This document shows, in pieces, positions 1 to 7,379 of a stretch of DNA of 7,379 bases. The position numbers and the translations under genes were made by a program. The DNA lies in IMG/VR virus record IMGVR_UViG_3300028969_000089. One strand, written 5' to 3'. The DNA comes from a virus (Duplodnaviria; Heunggongvirae; Uroviricota; Caudoviricetes). Each line of letters starts with the position of its first letter. Positions within the stretch are counted from its first letter, which is position 1. The notes below the pieces were generated by a model, which saw only the letters and a list, made by a program, of their open reading frames with translations, made no database searches and was not told where the DNA came from.

Positions 1-82
1 AAATGTGGCCTGGCTGCACTCTGAAGTCACCGCATGGATGGCCGGGCGCATTGCCGGACGCAAACGGGGGTACGACGCATGA
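1..82 (+). CDS. 3' end of Vis/AlpA-family small DNA-binding regulator (5' truncated by window edge)
   Basis: Aligns base-for-base with 6744..6825, the 3' end of the complete 88-aa ORF 6559..6825. Reading frame ends at stop TGA 80..82, encoding ...[26 protein letters not shown]. Confidence 0.6.
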
Positions 83-117
83 TGATGCCCGCTCTGCAAA
101 AACTCCCTTTTTCTGGC

Positions 118-147
118 TTGCCTTTTTCCGGCATTTGCGGATATAGT
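118..147 (+). promoter_or_regulatory. Sigma70-like promoter, candidate early promoter of the left operon (P4 PLE equivalent)
   Basis: TTGCCT (118..123), 18-nt spacer, TATAGT (142..147), directly downstream of the vis stop. Identical hexamers at 6861..6866 and 6885..6890 in copy B. Confidence 0.4.
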
Positions 148-210
148 TTTTCCGCTGTCGCAAAATCGGCAGCCGGGCGTGAGAACCCGAGCAATTCACA
201 GGCGACATAT

Positions 211-232
211 GACGCGCCACGCGTCTTTTTTT
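211..232 (+). terminator. Intrinsic terminator-like hairpin in the leader
   Basis: GACGCG (211..216), loop CCA, CGCGTC (220..225), then seven T (226..232). Copy B keeps a GACGC/GCGTC stem plus T7 at 6954..6975. Confidence 0.45.
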
Positions 233-390
233 GTGTCGCAATCAATGCCACAGAGCGCCAGATTATGGTGTGGTGTGTGGTCAGTCGTGCAGATGGCATT
301 CCGTGCATCCTGCCCGCGTCCGCTCATTATGCCGCAGAGTCAATGGTAGCTCAGGCGGGGCAGCCTCCGGGCTGGCCGGTATCCTGTGAA

Positions 391-452
391 GCCGGTATTC
401 TCACCCCCGTCTGGGCTATCGCCATCGAGCGTGAGAACTCCGGCGATAGCGT
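391..452 (+). ncRNA. Candidate CI-like immunity RNA core (62-nt block identical in both repeat copies)
   Basis: The 62 nt at 391..452 are identical to 7125..7186 while the 10 nt immediately upstream and the sequence downstream differ. Contains a 9-bp stem GCTATCGCC (415..423) / GGCGATAGC (442..450) with an 18-nt loop exposing GTGAGAAC (431..438), and an upstream TTCTCAC (398..404) complementary to GTGAGAA. Confidence 0.35.
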
Positions 453-480
453 TATTTGCTATTCACAGGAGGCTGCCATC

Positions 481-678
481 ATGGCTACAACCCTTACCCC
501 CTCACACCCTGAATTTGTCTTTGTGTTTGCGGCTGTCCGTCGCGCAGACCGTCATCCCCGTATCTGTATGCTTCGCACCGTCGCCGGTGATGAACGCAGT
601 GCCCGCCGTTCCCTTGTCCGTGACTATGTGCTCTCCCTTGCTGCCCGTCTGCCGGTGGTGGAGGTGTCCCGTGCGTAA
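481..678 (+). CDS. Small conserved protein (65 aa) downstream of the CI-like block; function unknown (Kil/Eps position of a P4-type left operon)
   Basis: ATG 481 preceded by AGGAGG (467..472) with an 8-nt spacer. Copy B (7215..7379) differs at only three positions across the 55 aligned codons, all synonymous third-base changes (ACA/ACG, CCC/CCT, TGT/TGC). Confidence 0.55.
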
Positions 679-1160: not shown

Positions 1161-2372
1161 GTGGCAAGAACGACACGCCCCCTGACCAACACAGAAGTTC
1201 TGCGCGCTAAAGCGTTAGAAAAGGATCTAACGTTACATGATGGCGATGGCCTTTTTCTGCTCGTTAAAACGAACGGTAAGAAGTTGTGGCGTTTCCGTTA
1301 TCAACGTCCAGCAACAAAACAGCGGACAATGATGGGGCTTGGTGCTTTCCCCGCCCTTTCACTTGCTGATGCTCGAAGGTTAAGAGCGGATTACCTTGCT
1401 TTGTTGGCTAATGGTATAGACCCACAAGTTCAAGCTGAATTTATCGAAGAACAACAACAGATAGCTCTAGACAGTATTTTTTCGACTGTTGCGACCAACT
1501 GGTTCCAGATAAAAAGCAAAAGCGTTACCCCTGATTACGCTAAAGATATATGGCGCTCACTGGAAAAAGACGTATTCCCTGCCATCGGGGAGATTCCTGT
1601 CCAGCAAATAAAAGCCCGAACACTAGTTGAAGCCCTTGAGCCAATCAAAGCTCGTGGAGCACTCGAGACAGTGCGCCGACTTGTACAGCGCATTAACGAG
1701 ATAATGATTTATGCCGTAAACACTGGTCTGATTGATGCCAATCCAGCATCAGGTGTTGGGATGGCCTTTGAAAAGCCCAGAAAACAAAACATGCCGACGC
1801 TGAGGCCAGAAGAATTACCAAAGCTGATGCGTTCTTTGTTCATGTCAAATCTGTCTGTTCCGACTCGCTGTCTCATTGAATGGCAGCTTCTGACTCTAGT
1901 GCGTCCTGCTGAAGCTTCCGGTGCTCGATGGGCAGAGATCGATCTCGATGCAAAGCTCTGGATGATTCCAGCCGAACGGATGAAGGCCAAACGAGAGCAC
2001 ATAGTTCCTTTATCCACGCAGGCATTAGAAATTCTAGAAGTGATGCAACCTATTAGCGCACATCGTGAGCATGTTTTCCCAAGCAGAAATGACCCTAAAC
2101 AACCAATGAATAGCCAGACTGCGAATGCCGCGCTTAAGCGCATTGGTTATGGTGGGAAGCTTGTTGCTCATGGATTACGTTCTATAGCAAGTACAGCACT
2201 AAATGAAGCTGGTTTTAATCCGGACGTAATTGAAGCGGCACTTGCTCACAGTGATAAAAATGAAGTTCGAAGAGCATACAATCGTTCAACTTACCTTGAA
2301 CAACGTATAGACTTGATGAATTGGTGGGGTGAATTTGTGCACAACCGCCACCGCCTCATGCAAGCGATTTAA
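1161..2372 (+). CDS. int: P4-type tyrosine integrase (site-specific recombinase)
   Basis: 403-aa ORF starting GTG 1161 with AAGGAG at 1147..1152. N-terminal arm-binding-type sequence (LHDGDGLFLLVKTNGKKLWRFRYQ) and C-terminal catalytic signature HGLRSIAS ... RAYNRSTY typical of P4-family integrases. Confidence 0.9.
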   Translation: MARTTRPLTNTEVLRAKALEKDLTLHDGDGLFLLVKTNGKKLWRFRYQRPATKQRTMMGLGAFPALSLADARRLRADYLALLANGIDPQVQAEFIEEQQQIALDSIFSTVATNWFQIKSKSVTPDYAKDIWRSLEKDVFPAIGEIPVQQIKARTLVEALEPIKARGALETVRRLVQRINEIMIYAVNTGLIDANPASGVGMAFEKPRKQNMPTLRPEELPKLMRSLFMSNLSVPTRCLIEWQLLTLVRPAEASGARWAEIDLDAKLWMIPAERMKAKREHIVPLSTQALEILEVMQPISAHREHVFPSRNDPKQPMNSQTANAALKRIGYGGKLVAHGLRSIASTALNEAGFNPDVIEAALAHSDKNEVRRAYNRSTYLEQRIDLMNWWGEFVHNRHRLMQAI

Positions 2373-2399
2373 TAAGATTGCACAGCAAAGGAGTCTTAA

Positions 2400-3758
2400 A
2401 TGCCAAATAACTACCATCAATACATCGAAGACGTTAGTGATGATATAAAGACATGTCTTGAAGGAATGGGATGCCAACCCATACTTTTTGTTGGATCGGG
2501 ATTAACCAAGAGATATCTTTCTGGCCCAAACTGGGAAGAACTTCTTCAGCAACTTGCTAATGAATGTCCTAACATCGATAAAAGATTTGCCTATTATAAA
2601 CAGAAATACCCCGAGTTGATTGATATCGGCAGTGTATTTTCTGATTCTTATAACGAGTGGGCATGGGGTGATGGAGAGAAAGAATTTCCAGCAGAGTTAT
2701 TTGATGCAGGCAATGAGCCAAGTATTTATTTTAAATACAAAGTATCTAGTATTTTCAACTCATTGTTACAAGAAAAAGAAATCGTAAACAACGGTGAAAT
2801 TGAACTTCTGAGAAAGATTCACCCTCATTCAATCATCACAACAAATTACGACAAATTACTTGAATCGATATATCCTGAGTTTACCCCCATTATAGGCCAA
2901 AAAATCCTTTACGCTAATCACGGTAGCATTGGTGAAATACTTAAAATACATGGTTGCTGCTCCACTCCTGAAAGCATAATAATAAACCGCGATGACTACG
3001 ATGACTTCATAAAGAAGAAGAAATATTTAAGCGCAAAACTGCTTACTTTCTTTGCTGAACACCCTCTTCTATTTATAGGTTACAGCGCAGAAGACTCGAA
3101 CATAAAAAACATACTATCTGATATTGATGAACTACTTTCAGAAAATGGAGATGTCATTCCAAATATATACATTTTAGAATGGACGAGCAAACAAAATGAA
3201 AGTGAATACCCACGCCGTGAACGGCTGATTCAAGTATCTGCAAACAAAAGCATTAGAATAAAAAGTATAGTAGCAAATGACTTCTCTTGGGTATTTTCAG
3301 CGTTTGGCGCGAACAGAGCACTTGATAACATAAATCCCAAATTATTGAGGGCACTTTTAGCTCGCACTTACGATCTCGTCAGAACTGATATACCTCGCAA
3401 TCCTGTCCAAGTTGATTACCGAGTTTTATCAAGCATTAGCGAGTCAGAAGGTGAATTAGCGAAATTATATGGTATCGCCACATCGTCAGATGGTATGGCA
3501 TTTAATGCCAGTTATCCTTTTACTTTAACCACGCTAGGGCAATCACTTGGTTTCAAAGGCTGGCATGATGCGAACAAACTATTAGAAGTAGTTAAAAACA
3601 TCACGAACGTAGACATCAAGACATTCGATAACAAATACCACTATGCAATAATGAACGGTGATGAGATTCAGTCCCATAGATATTCAAACTATCTTCGAGA
3701 ACTCCTCGAAAAGGTTAGGGATGGAGAGGAGTTTGAGTTAGGAATAAAGGCTCCATAA
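2400..3758 (+). CDS. SIR2-like (SIR2_2-type) putative NAD+-hydrolase, candidate standalone antiphage defence protein with an uncharacterised C-terminal domain
   Basis: 452-aa ORF with AAGGAG at 2388..2393. Motifs read directly: ILFVGSGLTKRYLSGPNWEELL (Gly-rich NAD pocket), ITTNYD (Asn149, codon 2844..2846), KIHG (His184, codon 2949..2951), LFIGYSAED. Gene is markedly AT-rich against GC-rich flanks and starts 25 bp after the int stop. Confidence 0.8.
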   Translation: MPNNYHQYIEDVSDDIKTCLEGMGCQPILFVGSGLTKRYLSGPNWEELLQQLANECPNIDKRFAYYKQKYPELIDIGSVFSDSYNEWAWGDGEKEFPAELFDAGNEPSIYFKYKVSSIFNSLLQEKEIVNNGEIELLRKIHPHSIITTNYDKLLESIYPEFTPIIGQKILYANHGSIGEILKIHGCCSTPESIIINRDDYDDFIKKKKYLSAKLLTFFAEHPLLFIGYSAEDSNIKNILSDIDELLSENGDVIPNIYILEWTSKQNESEYPRRERLIQVSANKSIRIKSIVANDFSWVFSAFGANRALDNINPKLLRALLARTYDLVRTDIPRNPVQVDYRVLSSISESEGELAKLYGIATSSDGMAFNASYPFTLTTLGQSLGFKGWHDANKLLEVVKNITNVDIKTFDNKYHYAIMNGDEIQSHRYSNYLRELLEKVRDGEEFELGIKAP

Positions 3759-3945: not shown

Positions 3946-3964
3946 GTGCTTTCCCCGCCTCGCC
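3946..3964. other. Candidate cos site (P2/P4-type 19-nt cohesive end)
   Basis: GTGCTTTCCCCGCCTCGCC is the exact reverse complement of GGCGAGGCGGGGAAAGCAC, which I recall as the P2/P4 cohesive-end sequence. It lies between the cargo gene and psu, as cos does in P4. Confidence 0.6.
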
Positions 3965-4066
3965 CGCCCGCTTTGCGGGGCGGTTTTAATGCAGTTGCAC
4001 TGACACGCTCAGACCGCGCCGGGAATGGTGCGGTCTGCAGAAAATGAGGCAGGAAAACGCATGCAA

Positions 4067-4128: not shown

Positions 4129-4701
4129 TTACACAGACTGACGTGATGCCAGTTGCGCACTTTTACGCGAAAAAATCATGTTCTGCGCAGGGGTGAATTT
4201 TTCACGGCTGTCATCCACCGAAGCCGCGTCAGGCCTGAATCCGATGGCCGTTAAAATGTCGCTATCCTGTGCGGAATAATTAATTTTTTCCCCCTTCGCA
4301 AGCCAGGACAGAAGGGCTTCACGCAGGGCATCTGTGGCACGCTGTATGGCACAGTTTCGGGCAATGACCGTCAGCTCACTGTAGCCCATCAGCTCCGGTG
4401 CCAGTGCCGCCGCCAGTGCTGTGCCGTGCTGCTGCATAAAATCATTCAGCCGGTCGCGGATGCTGATGTGCTGAACGGCTTCATGCGAACGAATATAACG
4501 ACCGGCGGCCTGATTCACCTGCCATTTTCTGACTTCGATAATATTGCGTAATTCGTCCAAGCGACTGACGTTTCTGCCTTCTCCTGACAGAAGCCGCAGA
4601 TATTCCTGTTCGGCCGCAGCCAGCTCATTTTTGCGTTGCAGCCATGCTGCTTTGTTATTCTGACAGGTGTCAAAGGCCTGCTGTAAGGCTGTGCTTTCCA
4701 T
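4129..4701 (-). CDS. psu: Polarity suppression protein Psu (P4 capsid decoration / Rho antagonist)
   Basis: 190-aa ORF whose sequence (MESTALQQAFDTCQNNKAAWLQRKNELAAAEQEY...) matches my recollection of P4 Psu in length and sequence. Last gene of the sid-delta-psu late operon. Confidence 0.85.
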   Translation of the reverse strand: MESTALQQAFDTCQNNKAAWLQRKNELAAAEQEYLRLLSGEGRNVSRLDELRNIIEVRKWQVNQAAGRYIRSHEAVQHISIRDRLNDFMQQHGTALAAALAPELMGYSELTVIARNCAIQRATDALREALLSWLAKGEKINYSAQDSDILTAIGFRPDAASVDDSREKFTPAQNMIFSRKSAQLASRQSV

Positions 4702-4774: not shown

Positions 4775-5275
4775 TCATTCCAGACGCAGCGAATATGATT
4801 GTGTTTTTAACCGTACTGGCGGCAGTTCCTGTTTTTCATGCAGGCGTTCTGCCAGTTCGTCCGGTGTGACCGGGCGGACAATGAAGCGGTTGATGGTCTG
4901 AAGCGTTTTAAACACCAGACCACATCCCGGATCCGTGCACACATAAAAACGCTCGGTGACTTCCTGAGACAGACGCCGCGATGTTCTTGACAGTGCAAGG
5001 CCTTTACATCTCCGACAACAATATCCGGTAACAAGCATTCTTTTCGGGCGTTTCATACTGCCGGAGGCTGACGTCAGTGAATCGCGGTATCTCTGTTTGC
5101 CTGAAATGTATTCCATTCCTGAATCTTTACAGTCAGAGAAAAAGCTTTCACTCGCTTCAAATGTCGCAGAGCAATAAATATTCCGGCACTGTGCAATCAT
5201 TATCTTGGTGCCATCGTCCATGAAATGTGCGCGACGGGTGTGAGCAACATGTCCACACGACGGGCAGTAAATCAT
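4775..5275 (-). CDS. delta: Delta, Ogr/Delta-family zinc-finger late transcription activator
   Basis: 166 aa, the length of P4 Delta. Two Ogr-like halves each with Cys pairs (CPSC...CRNIYC and CCRRC...CTDPGC). Start overlaps the sid stop in an ATGA junction at 5272..5275. Confidence 0.85.
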   Translation of the reverse strand: MIYCPSCGHVAHTRRAHFMDDGTKIMIAQCRNIYCSATFEASESFFSDCKDSGMEYISGKQRYRDSLTSASGSMKRPKRMLVTGYCCRRCKGLALSRTSRRLSQEVTERFYVCTDPGCGLVFKTLQTINRFIVRPVTPDELAERLHEKQELPPVRLKTQSYSLRLE

Positions 5276-6006
5276 GACAGCAGTCCTCTGGCCTTAAGCT
5301 CTGCTCCCTGCTGGTCTATTTTGTCCTGCCACACCTTGCGCTGTGCCGGTGTGCCTGCCACCTCATAATCCATGTGCGGGAGTGTTGCCGCTGACAGTCC
5401 GGTCAGCCGGAGAACCGGCTCGCCGGTGAGGCTGATTTGCATCTGTTTAATTTTCTGTTCCAGCGATGATTTCACCTGCTGCATGACAGCCTTTTCCGGT
5501 GCGACGTAGCCCTGATGGCCGGTGGTGTTGGCGAGCGGATTTTCCTGTACCAGGATACTCAGATGCATTGCCCGGACAAGCGCCTCACAGGTTTCATTTA
5601 GGGCGTGTTCCAGCTCATGCTCTGCATACAGACTCAGAAGGTGATGATGTGCCTTCCGGTAGGCGGTGGCCGTGCTGTCACACGCCCCTTTCAGGCGTTC
5701 ACGTTCGAAATTCAGCACCACGGCCAGATTGTCATATTCCTGTACCAGCTCCCGGCGTGCCACGCGCTCAATGTGGCGCTGTTTCAGCTCGTCGCTCAGG
5801 ACACCACCGGCTGCACGAAAGGCCGTGCGCCAGTCGTCAGCGTCGTTTCCGTCGGCCTGCGCCAGCGCATTTTTTTCCTGCTCTGCCCGTTCAATGGCCG
5901 TGATGGTCTCATCCATCAGGCGGGCGTTCTCAAGATGAGCGGCTCTGGCCTTTTCCAGTTGTGCCAGCGCGGGTTGCAGATATTCAGGGATGGTGTTGTC
6001 AGACAT
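5272..6006 (-). CDS. sid: Sid, external scaffold / capsid size determination protein
   Basis: The ORF track extends to 6072, but the ATG at 6004..6006 (MSDNTIPEYL...) has a GGAG 6 nt upstream and gives 244 aa, matching P4 Sid as I recall it. The upstream ATG would overlap the predicted promoter dyads. Confidence 0.8.
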   Translation of the reverse strand: MSDNTIPEYLQPALAQLEKARAAHLENARLMDETITAIERAEQEKNALAQADGNDADDWRTAFRAAGGVLSDELKQRHIERVARRELVQEYDNLAVVLNFERERLKGACDSTATAYRKAHHHLLSLYAEHELEHALNETCEALVRAMHLSILVQENPLANTTGHQGYVAPEKAVMQQVKSSLEQKIKQMQISLTGEPVLRLTGLSAATLPHMDYEVAGTPAQRKVWQDKIDQQGAELKARGLLS

Positions 6007-6040
6007 TTTCCGGCTCCTCGTCACTTCAGGTTGAGAAAAT

Positions 6041-6096
6041 TGTGACGTACACCGGACAACAACACGACGCATTGCAGATGTGCCAGCCCTGACACA
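6041..6096 (-). promoter_or_regulatory. Candidate Psid late promoter with two Ogr/Delta-type TGT-N12-ACA dyads
   Basis: Dyads TGT-N12-ACA at 6041..6058 and 6079..6096, centres 38 bp apart. If the distal dyad is at -55 the start site falls near 6032, about 26 nt upstream of the sid ATG, and the proximal dyad near -17. Confidence 0.5.
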
Positions 6097-6558: not shown

Positions 6559-6825
6559 ATGCAAGCTGTTTTTTCTTCCCCGTCTCCCTCCCCTGTGACG
6601 CCACTGATGCCGCTGCCGGACATCACGCAGGAGCGTTTTTTACGTCTGCCGGAAGTGATGCACCTGTGCGGCCTGTCACGTTCGACCATCTATGAACTCA
6701 TCCGTAAGGGGGAATTTCCGCCGCAGGTGAGTCTTGGCGGTAAAAATGTGGCCTGGCTGCACTCTGAAGTCACCGCATGGATGGCCGGGCGCATTGCCGG
6801 ACGCAAACGGGGGTACGACGCATGA
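6559..6825 (+). CDS. vis: Vis/AlpA-family small DNA-binding regulator / excisionase-like protein
   Basis: 88-aa ORF with an AlpA-type helix-turn-helix core ([43 protein letters not shown]). Position between the late promoter region and the early promoter matches P4 vis as I recall it. Confidence 0.75.
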
Positions 6826-6860
6826 TGATGCCTGTTCTGCAAAAACTCCCTTTTTCTGGC

Positions 6861-6890
6861 TTGCCTTTTTCCGGCATTTGCGGATATAGT
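6861..6890 (+). promoter_or_regulatory. Sigma70-like promoter, copy B of the candidate early promoter
   Basis: TTGCCT (6861..6866), 18-nt spacer, TATAGT (6885..6890); identical to copy A. Confidence 0.4.
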
Positions 6891-6953
6891 TTTTCCGTTG
6901 CCGCAAAATCGGCAGCCGGGCGTGAGAACCCGAGTATGTTATCGGCGACATAT

Positions 6954-6975
6954 GACGCGCCATGCGTCTTTTTTT
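6954..6975 (+). terminator. Leader hairpin plus T7, copy B
   Basis: GACGC (6954..6958) / GCGTC (6964..6968) with a 5-nt loop, then seven T (6969..6975). Confidence 0.4.
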
Positions 6976-7124
6976 GTGTCGCAATCAACGCCACAGAGCA
7001 CCAGATTATGGTGTGGCGTGTGGTTTGCCGTGCAGGTATGATCCTGTTCGCAATCGCATGTTATGCCTCTGAGTCAATGGTAGCTCAGGCGGGGCAGCCT
7101 CCGGGCTGGCCGGTTTCCGATAAC

Positions 7125-7186
7125 GCCGGTATTCTCACCCCCGTCTGGGCTATCGCCATCGAGCGTGAGAACTCCGGCGATAGCGT
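7125..7186 (+). ncRNA. Candidate CI-like immunity RNA core, copy B
   Basis: 62 nt identical to 391..452, flanked by diverged sequence. Confidence 0.35.
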
Positions 7187-7214
7187 CATTTACGCTGTTA
7201 TCGGAGGTTGCCTT

Positions 7215-7379
7215 ATGGCTACGACCCTTACCCCTTCACACCCTGAATTTGTCTTTGTGTTTGCGGCTGTCCGTCGCGCAGACCGTCATCCCCGTATCTG
7301 CATGCTTCGCACCGTCGCCGGTGATGAACGCAGTGCCCGCCGTTCCCTTGTCCGTGACTATGTGCTCTCCCTTGCTGCC
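7215..7379 (+). CDS. Small conserved protein, copy B (3' truncated by window end)
   Basis: ATG 7215 preceded by GGAGG. The 55 codons visible differ from 481..645 only at three synonymous sites. Confidence 0.5.

What the first reader, a model, noticed from the sequence alone, without database searches (positions are those of the whole stretch)
3190..3758. C-terminal ~190 residues of the SIR2-like protein have no recognisable fold and may be the phage sensor
After the SIR2 core ends (around residue 265), the remainder (SIRIKSIVANDFSWVFSAF ... NKYHYAIMNGDEIQSHRYSNYLRELLEKVRDGEEFELGIKAP) shows no Rossmann/SLOG-like Gly-rich motif, TIR motif or nucleotide-binding loop that I can recognise. Defence SIR2 effectors are usually gated by a fused or separate sensor, so this region is the likeliest determinant of trigger specificity.
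Basis: inference. Interest (0 to 1): 0.6.

Follow-up and report, generated by a model that had tools for sequence, protein, structure and literature searches.

The report
SIR2 NADase tail: neck plus winged-helix
The unannotated tail of this satellite-phage SIR2 (NAD-degrading) protein is the end of the SIR2 fold, then a very conserved helical neck, then a small domain that looks like a winged helix; it is a plausible regulator or sensor with no function shown, in a gene already catalogued as a candidate defence gene.

Summary
The window is an E. coli P4-like satellite. A 452-aa SIR2 gene (2400-3758) sits alone in the int-psu defence hotspot, next to cos.

Residues 265-452 match no Pfam, NCBIfam or PDB-sequence family, but the region is not fold-less:
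- The SIR2 fold runs on to about residue 303.
- Residues 304-366 form a helical neck, the most conserved part of the tail.
- Residues 367-445 form a confidently modelled compact domain (pLDDT 85-92) with winged-helix topology. Its link to the LexA DNA-binding domain is weak but in register (hhalign P 1.4e-4; 0 of 900 control ORFs score as high).

The tail domain was found only behind SIR2_2, in bacteria and archaea. It is under strong purifying selection. No conserved partner gene appears in 80 loci, and there is no SLOG domain. A haloarchaeal sister subfamily keeps SIR2 plus neck but has an unrelated tail, so only the last ~85 aa behave as a swappable module.

The sensor reading is plausible for that module and unproven. 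This exact gene (pFR88, Rousset 2022) was tested against eight coliphages and is not among the validated systems.

Verdict: an uncharacterised variant of known SIR2 effectors, of moderate interest.

The parts
2400..3758 (+). SIR2-family ORF, 452 aa (WP_001133507-type), the only cargo gene of the P4 int-psu hotspot
   Evidence: listed as a single-gene 'SIR2_2' system in Rousset 2022 Table S1A
2400..3308 (+). SIR2 catalytic domain, residues 1-303. It includes the helical insertion and three strands plus a helix beyond the Pfam envelope.
2844..2846 (+). Asn149 codon (TTNYD motif), predicted catalytic Asn
   Evidence: Invariant in 62 sequences, at least 90% in the 55 more divergent ones; lies in the TTNYD motif that aligns with the identical motif of DSR2
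2949..2951 (+). His184 codon (KIHG motif), predicted catalytic His
   Evidence: Invariant in both alignments; aligns with the KVHG motif of DSR2. That this is the His changed in the H171A and KomC H146N entries is inferred from entry names, not checked by residue number.
3309..3497 (+). Conserved helical 'neck', residues 304-366: helix 313-333 carrying LRALLARTYDLVRTDIP, then a low-confidence segment 334-366
   Evidence: Lowest entropy of the tail (0.69 bits for residues 321-340); 0/63 and 2/63 amino-acid changes against relatives that are 95% and 91% identical overall; pLDDT 41-68; covered by PADLOC PDC-S25 model PDLC04968 and retained in haloarchaeal relatives
3498..3755 (+). Terminal compact domain, residues 367-452, winged-helix-like: H365-371, bridge 374, H376-382, H389-402, hairpin 414-419/422-428, H430-440. 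Conserved W388, D410, N411, Y413, H414, Y428, S429.
   Evidence: pLDDT 85-92; hhalign to LexA prob 53%, P 1.4e-4, HTH in register; 0 of 900 control ORFs reach that score; Foldseek BFVD 'Antirepressor', 83 columns, prob 0.96, E 0.23; conservation
1161..2372 (+). P4-type integrase, left border of the hotspot
3946..3964 (-). P2/P4 cos 19-mer GGCGAGGCGGGGAAAGCAC, right border of the cargo
   Evidence: Exact match. The same string occurs in the cloned P4 sequence of Rousset Table S2A. That it is the cos 19-mer rests on my own knowledge.
4129..4701 (-). psu (polarity suppression protein), right flank of the hotspot

Best explanation
The protein is a stand-alone, mobile-element-borne SIR2 NADase of the candidate-defence type. 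It has three parts.
1. A catalytically intact SIR2 domain, residues 1-303.
2. A strongly conserved helical neck, residues 304-366.
3. A small winged-helix-like terminal domain, residues 367-445.

Proposed mechanism (inferred). The neck and winged-helix module keep the enzyme inactive. When the terminal domain binds a conserved ligand on its recognition-helix/wing face (W388-H389, D410-N411-x-Y413-H414, Y428-S429), the protein changes its oligomeric state. The ligand is more likely a nucleic-acid or nucleotide-like feature than a variable phage protein. The neck would form the interface, and the SIR2 domains would switch on, deplete NAD+ and abort infection.

Shown here: the domain layout, conserved catalytic residues, exclusive pairing of the tail with SIR2, absence of a partner gene, mobile-element context and purifying selection.

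Inferred only: NADase activity, gating, the ligand, oligomerisation and defence.
For: Context. The gene is the sole cargo between int and cos/psu of a P4-like satellite, the hotspot described in PMC9122126. GC is 0.35-0.39 against 0.50-0.59 in the flanks. The P. aeruginosa homologue lies in a Pf-like prophage and the Cohnella one next to integrases.

Tail. Only 173 clusters among 1.84 billion representatives carry it. The full-length ones are mostly ~450-490 aa with the tail in the same position, and all 10 scanned, including the atypically long ones, have SIR2_2 in front. Full-length homologues of 31-55% identity occur across Proteobacteria, Firmicutes, Planctomycetes, Cyanobacteria and archaea. 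The tail is 60% identical on average against 64% for residues 1-264, and dN/dS is 0.03-0.06.

Terminal domain. Confident compact model with winged-helix topology. LexA hhalign P 1.4e-4 with helix 2-turn-helix 3 in register, above all 900 control ORFs. BirA and CRP align in the same register but weakly. Weak member hits to LexA_DNA_bind, HTH_AraC, HTH_30, MerR_1 and PadR.

Modularity. Haloarchaeal relatives keep SIR2 plus neck and swap the terminal domain. The PADLOC PDC-S25 model covers only profile positions 10-358 of 517 in every member tested.

No partner gene.
Against: The same gene under its native promoter (pFR88) is listed only among the 'additional tested systems' of Rousset 2022, not among the systems validated against eight coliphages. 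Defence is therefore unproven.

The winged-helix assignment is below any curated threshold. There is no Pfam hit at gathering score, the PDB profile search is negative, and the Foldseek E-value is 0.23. It rests partly on a hypothesis-driven hhalign test, one of seven targeted comparisons.

The terminal domain is about neutral in charge (mean +1), not basic as in typical DNA binders.

The neck is poorly modelled (pLDDT 41-68), so its role as an interface is a guess.
Confidence: 0.45

Rival explanations
1. The tail is structural and autoinhibitory only. Neck and terminal domain mediate oligomerisation or cap the SIR2 active site, and the trigger is sensed elsewhere, for example by the N-terminal helical insertion of the SIR2 domain or through a drop in a host metabolite.
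For: The neck is the best conserved part of the tail and is shared by subfamilies with different tails. The conserved residues of the terminal domain are aromatic and polar rather than basic, which would suit an intramolecular interface. The closest SIR2 relatives are regulated through assembly.
Against: A purely structural cap would not need to be exchanged for unrelated tails between subfamilies. The conserved residues fall on the segments that correspond to the recognition helix and wing of a winged helix, the usual ligand face.
Confidence: 0.25
2. The terminal winged-helix domain is a DNA-binding autoregulator, as in the BirA or NadR type of enzyme-plus-repressor. It controls expression of the gene or of satellite genes and is not an infection sensor.
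For: LexA-like HTH register. Weak hits to transcriptional-repressor families (phrog_362 in 4 of 43 members; HTH families). Enzyme-repressor fusions are known (my own knowledge).
Against: No conserved upstream region or operator can be expected, because the gene sits in unrelated contexts across phyla. The domain has neutral charge. It never occurs as a separate regulator or with other partners.
Confidence: 0.1
3. The gene is not an anti-phage system in E. coli. It could be an inactive passenger, a satellite-helper interference factor, or an NAD-dependent protein-modifying enzyme whose tail recruits a substrate.
Against: The hotspot location, the presence in prophages and integrative elements, the patchy distribution across phyla and the strong purifying selection are typical of defence cargo. 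The nearest relatives by sequence and fold are defence NADases, not deacetylases. Eight phages is a small panel.
Confidence: 0.2

Closest known systems
PADLOC candidate system PDC-S25 (single-gene SIR2 'phage defence candidate', model PDLC04968)
   Same: Best HMM match, E 2.1e-84, covering residues 12-376, that is SIR2 plus neck. Single-gene architecture.
   Different: Only profile positions 10-358 of 517 are matched, in this protein and in the six relatives tested whose match ends between positions 340 and 370; P0254 reaches 437. The last third of the model is absent, and an ~85-aa winged-helix-like domain stands in its place. PDC-S25 itself has no demonstrated function that I could find.
Thoeris ThsA (SIR2-SLOG NADase)
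   Different: No SLOG domain: the ThsA models align only to the SIR2 part, there is no LOG/DprA/SLOG Pfam hit, and the tail is mostly helical with one hairpin. No ThsB/TIR partner gene.
Kongming KomC (SIR2 effector activated by dITP in the KomBC filament)
   Different: KomC is SIR2 only (264-277 aa) and needs KomA and KomB. Here there are no partner genes and there is an extra 150-aa tail.
DSR2/DSR1 and Avs5 (single-protein SIR2 defence NADases with fused sensors)
   Different: Those proteins are ~770-1230 aa, judged from the PDB chain and PADLOC profile lengths; their repeat or STAND-NTPase sensor domains are from my own knowledge. This protein is 452 aa with an ~85-aa winged-helix-like end. 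The NCBIfam Dsr2 score is 14.6 against a cut-off of 1400.
LexA-type winged helix-turn-helix DNA-binding domain (Pfam LexA_DNA_bind)
   Same: Helix 2-turn-helix 3 aligns in register (hhalign prob 53%, P 1.4e-4). The model has alpha-beta-alpha-alpha-beta-beta topology. 2 of 43 members hit LexA_DNA_bind weakly.
   Different: No hit at Pfam threshold. The hairpin is longer than the LexA wing (an 11-column gap on the LexA side). There is an extra C-terminal helix, neutral charge, and a conserved aromatic/His motif not seen in LexA.

Membership tests
SIR2_2 (Pfam PF13289) defence-type sirtuin fold | HMM match above the gathering score | tested here: met
   95.4 bits against a cut-off of 24.5, E 4.3e-27, residues 144-266
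SIR2_2 (Pfam PF13289) defence-type sirtuin fold | Conserved catalytic Asn and His | tested here: met
   N149 (TTNYD) and H184 (KIHG) are conserved and lie in motifs that align with the same motifs of DSR2
SIR2_2 (Pfam PF13289) defence-type sirtuin fold | NAD+ hydrolase activity | not testable with these tools
   Needs an enzyme assay
PADLOC PDC-S25 | Match to the PDC-S25 HMM over most of its length | tested here: inconclusive
   E 2.1e-84, but only profile positions 10-358 of 517 are covered; the last third is unmatched
PADLOC PDC-S25 | Single-gene system | tested here: met
   No other ORF between int and cos; no conserved neighbour in 80 loci
Thoeris ThsA | C-terminal SLOG domain that binds cyclic ADPR isomers | tested here: not met
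   ThsA models align only to residues 117-251 and 221-291. The tail alone hits only PDC-S25. No SLOG/LOG/DprA Pfam hit in 43 members. The tail model is helical with one hairpin, not a Rossmann-like sheet.
Thoeris ThsA | Adjacent TIR-domain ThsB gene | tested here: not met
DSR2 / DSR1 | Long C-terminal sensor region in a protein of 1000 aa or more; NCBIfam equivalog score | tested here: not met
   452 aa in all; NF041819 gives 14.6 bits against a cut-off of 1400
Kongming KomC | Operon with KomA and KomB | tested here: not met
   No neighbouring genes of any conserved kind
Winged helix-turn-helix (LexA_DNA_bind-like) | alpha1-beta1-alpha2-T-alpha3-beta2-W-beta3 topology | tested here: inconclusive
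   The AF2 secondary-structure string fits, but no tail-only model could be compared with structure libraries. One Foldseek hit of 83 columns has prob 0.96 and E 0.23.
Winged helix-turn-helix (LexA_DNA_bind-like) | Significant sequence-profile match | tested here: inconclusive
   hhalign P 1.4e-4, prob 53%, above 900 of 900 control ORFs, but no Pfam or PDB HMM hit below E 0.01
Winged helix-turn-helix (LexA_DNA_bind-like) | Nucleic-acid binding | not testable with these tools
   Needs EMSA or a structure with ligand

The most novel reading that the evidence does not exclude
The terminal domain is a previously undescribed winged-helix sensor. Through an invariant aromatic/His face (W388, N411, Y413, H414, Y428, S429) it would recognise a conserved infection-associated nucleic-acid or nucleotide feature, for example single-stranded, modified or end-containing DNA. 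Binding would drive neck-mediated filament assembly of the SIR2 NADase. That would make this the smallest self-contained SIR2 immune sensor-effector, spread by satellites, filamentous prophages and islands across bacteria and archaea.
Probability: 0.15. Interest if true: 0.6.

Novelty: new variant of a known kind. Interest (0 to 1): 0.35.

Why it matters
SIR2 NADases are a major effector class in bacterial immunity. For each characterised one, how it is switched on has been the informative part: SLOG and cyclic ADPR for ThsA, tail-tube binding for DSR2, dITP for KomBC, STAND sensors for Avs5.

This family is widespread across bacteria and archaea and rides on P4 satellites and Pf prophages. 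It carries all of its regulation in about 150 residues with no partner gene. If the tail is shown to gate the enzyme, the family would be a compact model for SIR2 activation, and the trigger could be found with a short list of constructs.

As it stands, it is an uncharacterised variant of a known theme whose defence role has not been demonstrated.

Tried and rejected
1. SLOG, TIR or another known ligand domain in the tail: rejected.

2. A partner gene: rejected. Window ORFs, three individual contexts, clustering of neighbours in 80 loci, and Pfam on the recurrent neighbours, which are a dehydrogenase, an IS transposase, an integrase and LepA.

3. My recollection that the last 85 aa resemble the KilAC/ANT antirepressor domain. 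P22 Ant turned out to carry P22_AR_N and P22_AR_C instead. hhalign to P22 Ant and Rha gave nothing. PHROGs gave only weak, scattered hits. The one 'Antirepressor' Foldseek hit remains unexplained. KilAC itself was never tested.

4. Phage mimicry: tblastn of the last 88 aa against 50,697 phage records found no match.

5. A profile search of the 86-aa domain with the search for homologous proteins returned only 5 fragments of the same family, which was uninformative.

6. Fold searches with the full-length model were dominated by SIR2 and Rossmann-like hits. Both structure-prediction jobs went to the full-length protein, so no tail-only model was available. This is a planning error on my side.

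7. Homology between this tail and the haloarchaeal tails: none.

8. Diversifying selection in the tail: not seen.

Full report
**What the window is**

The window is a P4-like satellite of E. coli. The order is integrase (1161-2372, +), a 452-aa ORF (2400-3758, +), psu (4129-4701, -), delta (4775-5275, -) and sid (5272-6072, -). The ORF is 99.5-100% identical at DNA level in 7 of 5426 complete E. coli genomes, where it is annotated 'SIR2 family protein'.

No other credible ORF lies between the integrase stop and psu. The P2/P4 cos 19-mer sits at 3946-3964. The gene has 35-39% GC against 50-59% in the flanks. This is the int-psu defence hotspot of P4-like satellites (PMC9122126).

**The observation**

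Coordinates 3190-3758 correspond to residues 264-452 plus the stop codon, one base out of frame.

- Pfam gives only SIR2_2 at residues 144-266 and nothing for 265-452.
- NCBIfam gives nothing.
- PADLOC gives only the candidate model PDC-S25.
- Forty-three diverse tails scanned one by one gave scattered sub-threshold hits.
- A tail profile found nothing significant among PDB sequences.

Two parts of the observation do not hold.

Second, the remainder is not fold-less.
- Residues 304-366 form a helical neck. Helix 313-333 carries the motif LRALLARTYDLVRTDIP, followed by a low-confidence segment.
- Residues 367-445 form a compact domain with pLDDT 85-92. Its layout is helix 365-371, a beta bridge at 374, helices 376-382 and 389-402, a hairpin at 414-419 and 422-428, and helix 430-440. 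This is the winged-helix order of elements plus one extra helix.

**What the terminal domain resembles**

Noticing an HTH-like pattern (TLTxVAxxLG...WHxANxLIxxI), I compared the 86-aa profile (A4) with E. coli LexA. hhalign gave probability 53% and P 1.4e-4, with helix 2-turn-helix 3 in register.

None of 900 control ORFs from the fetched loci reached that score; the highest was 23.2 against 29.5. BirA and CRP align in the same register, but weakly.

In BFVD, the one short match (under 130 alignment columns) with probability above 0.9 was a 102-aa 'Antirepressor' (83 columns, prob 0.96, E 0.23). Weak member hits go to LexA_DNA_bind, HTH_AraC, HTH_30, MerR_1 and PadR.

The assignment is therefore suggestive, not established. 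The domain is about neutral in charge. Its conserved residues are aromatic or polar: W388, D410, N411, Y413, H414, Y428 and S429.

**Distribution and evolution**

- A full-sensitivity search with residues 265-452 against 1.84 billion representatives found only 173 clusters. The full-length ones are mostly ~450-490 aa with the tail in the same position, and all ten scanned, including the atypically long ones, carry SIR2_2 in front of it.
- Full-length homologues of 31-55% identity occur in Proteobacteria, Firmicutes, Planctomycetes, Cyanobacteria, Bacteroidota and archaea.
- The tail is 60% identical on average against 64% for residues 1-264, and 19 tail columns are invariant in 62 sequences.
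- Against relatives of 95% and 91% identity, dN/dS is 0.025-0.06 wherever it could be computed. The neck shows 0/63 and 2/63 amino-acid changes; its dS against the 91% relative was saturated.
- The haloarchaeal relatives P0254 and P0255 (the latter encoded in Halovenus salina) share residues 1 to ~365-384 at 37-42% identity and then carry an unrelated acidic tail.
- In six of the seven relatives tested, as in the query, the PADLOC PDC-S25 match ends between profile positions 340 and 370 of 517; P0254 reaches 437.

The conserved unit is therefore SIR2 plus neck. Only the last ~85 aa behave as an exchangeable module.

**Partners**

None were found. In P. aeruginosa the gene lies in a Pf-like filamentous prophage. 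In Cohnella it lies beside integrases. In Vibrio it stands alone. Across 80 loci from different species, no neighbour family occurs in more than 6, and those are a short-chain dehydrogenase, an IS transposase, an integrase and LepA.

**Literature**

- WP_001133507, the accession annotated on the 100% identical E. coli E47 copy, is listed as a single-gene 'SIR2_2' system in Table S1A of Rousset 2022.
- The Domainator paper lists a single-gene P4-hotspot cluster as 'Sir2-like (Likely a NADase)', system 9 of Rousset. That this cluster is the present gene is my inference.
- Plasmid pFR88 ('SIR2', E. coli M605) matches window 2279-2475 without a mismatch. It appears in Table S2B, 'additional tested systems', not in the table of validated systems. 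Seven of the tested P4 systems protected against the eight-phage panel, and this one is not among them.
- PDC-S25 is only a 'phage defence candidate'. I found no paper that characterises the family.

**Mechanism**

Best reading, confidence 0.45: a self-contained SIR2 NADase in which the neck and the winged-helix-like domain gate activity. The most likely route is ligand binding to the conserved face of the terminal domain, followed by a change of assembly state through the neck. This is by analogy with the closest structural relatives (ThsA, KomC, Avs5, FAM118B), which the abstracts describe as filament-forming.

The conservation of the putative binding face across bacteria and archaea argues for one conserved ligand, not for a fast-evolving determinant of phage specificity.

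Rivals:
- The tail is only autoinhibitory or structural (0.25).
- The gene is not a defence system, or acts only in a niche (0.20).
- The terminal domain is a transcriptional autoregulator (0.10).

**Verdict**

This is an uncharacterised variant of known SIR2 effectors, already catalogued as a candidate, with a previously undescribed but only tentatively assigned winged-helix-like end. Interest is moderate.

Noticed in passing
window 1-645 and 6744-7379: The first ~645 bases are a direct repeat (89-98% identity, spacing ~6.74 kb) of the last ~636 bases. That repeated region spans the 3' end of the AlpA-like HTH gene (6559-6825) and the sequence downstream of it. This part of a P4-like element therefore also lies just upstream of the integrase, which suggests tandem or remnant satellites. 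In E. coli E47 a different gene (a dCTP deaminase) precedes the same integrase, and a second integrase follows the element.
   Followed up: partly
window 3946-3964 (-): Exact copy of the 19-mer GGCGAGGCGGGGAAAGCAC, which I know as the P2/P4 cos site, between the SIR2 stop and psu. A terminator-like hairpin lies directly beside it at 3964-3983.
   Followed up: partly
window 2279-2475: Identical to the start of the insert of plasmid pFR88 ('SIR2', E. coli M605) of Rousset et al. 2022. That plasmid is listed among tested systems that were not reported as protective.
   Followed up: yes
L002-L004 (P. aeruginosa), gene at 6001-7353 in L002 and L003, 2567-3919 in L004: A 73%-identical homologue lies inside a Pf-like filamentous prophage (Zot, DUF2523) beside an excisionase-like HTH_17 gene. 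A 256-aa ORF with no Pfam domain starts 34 bp downstream. It was not among the neighbour families that recur across the 80 loci of other species, and is absent from the window.
   Followed up: partly
L080 5001-6782 (Halovenus salina) = P0255; also P0254: A haloarchaeal sister subfamily (593 and 613 aa) shares SIR2 plus neck with this protein and replaces the winged-helix-like end with an unrelated acidic tail of roughly 200-240 aa that has no Pfam domain.
   Followed up: partly
P0150 (598 aa) and P0232 (755 aa): In these two relatives the PDC-S25 match starts only at residues 138 and 168, so they carry an N-terminal extension of ~130-170 aa with no Pfam domain in front of the same SIR2-plus-tail architecture.
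   Followed up: no
L001 5604-7337 (E. coli E47): In strain E47 an 'anti-phage dCTP deaminase' gene lies immediately upstream of the same P4-like integrase, next to a P2-like prophage. Several defence cargos are therefore clustered at this site.
   Followed up: no
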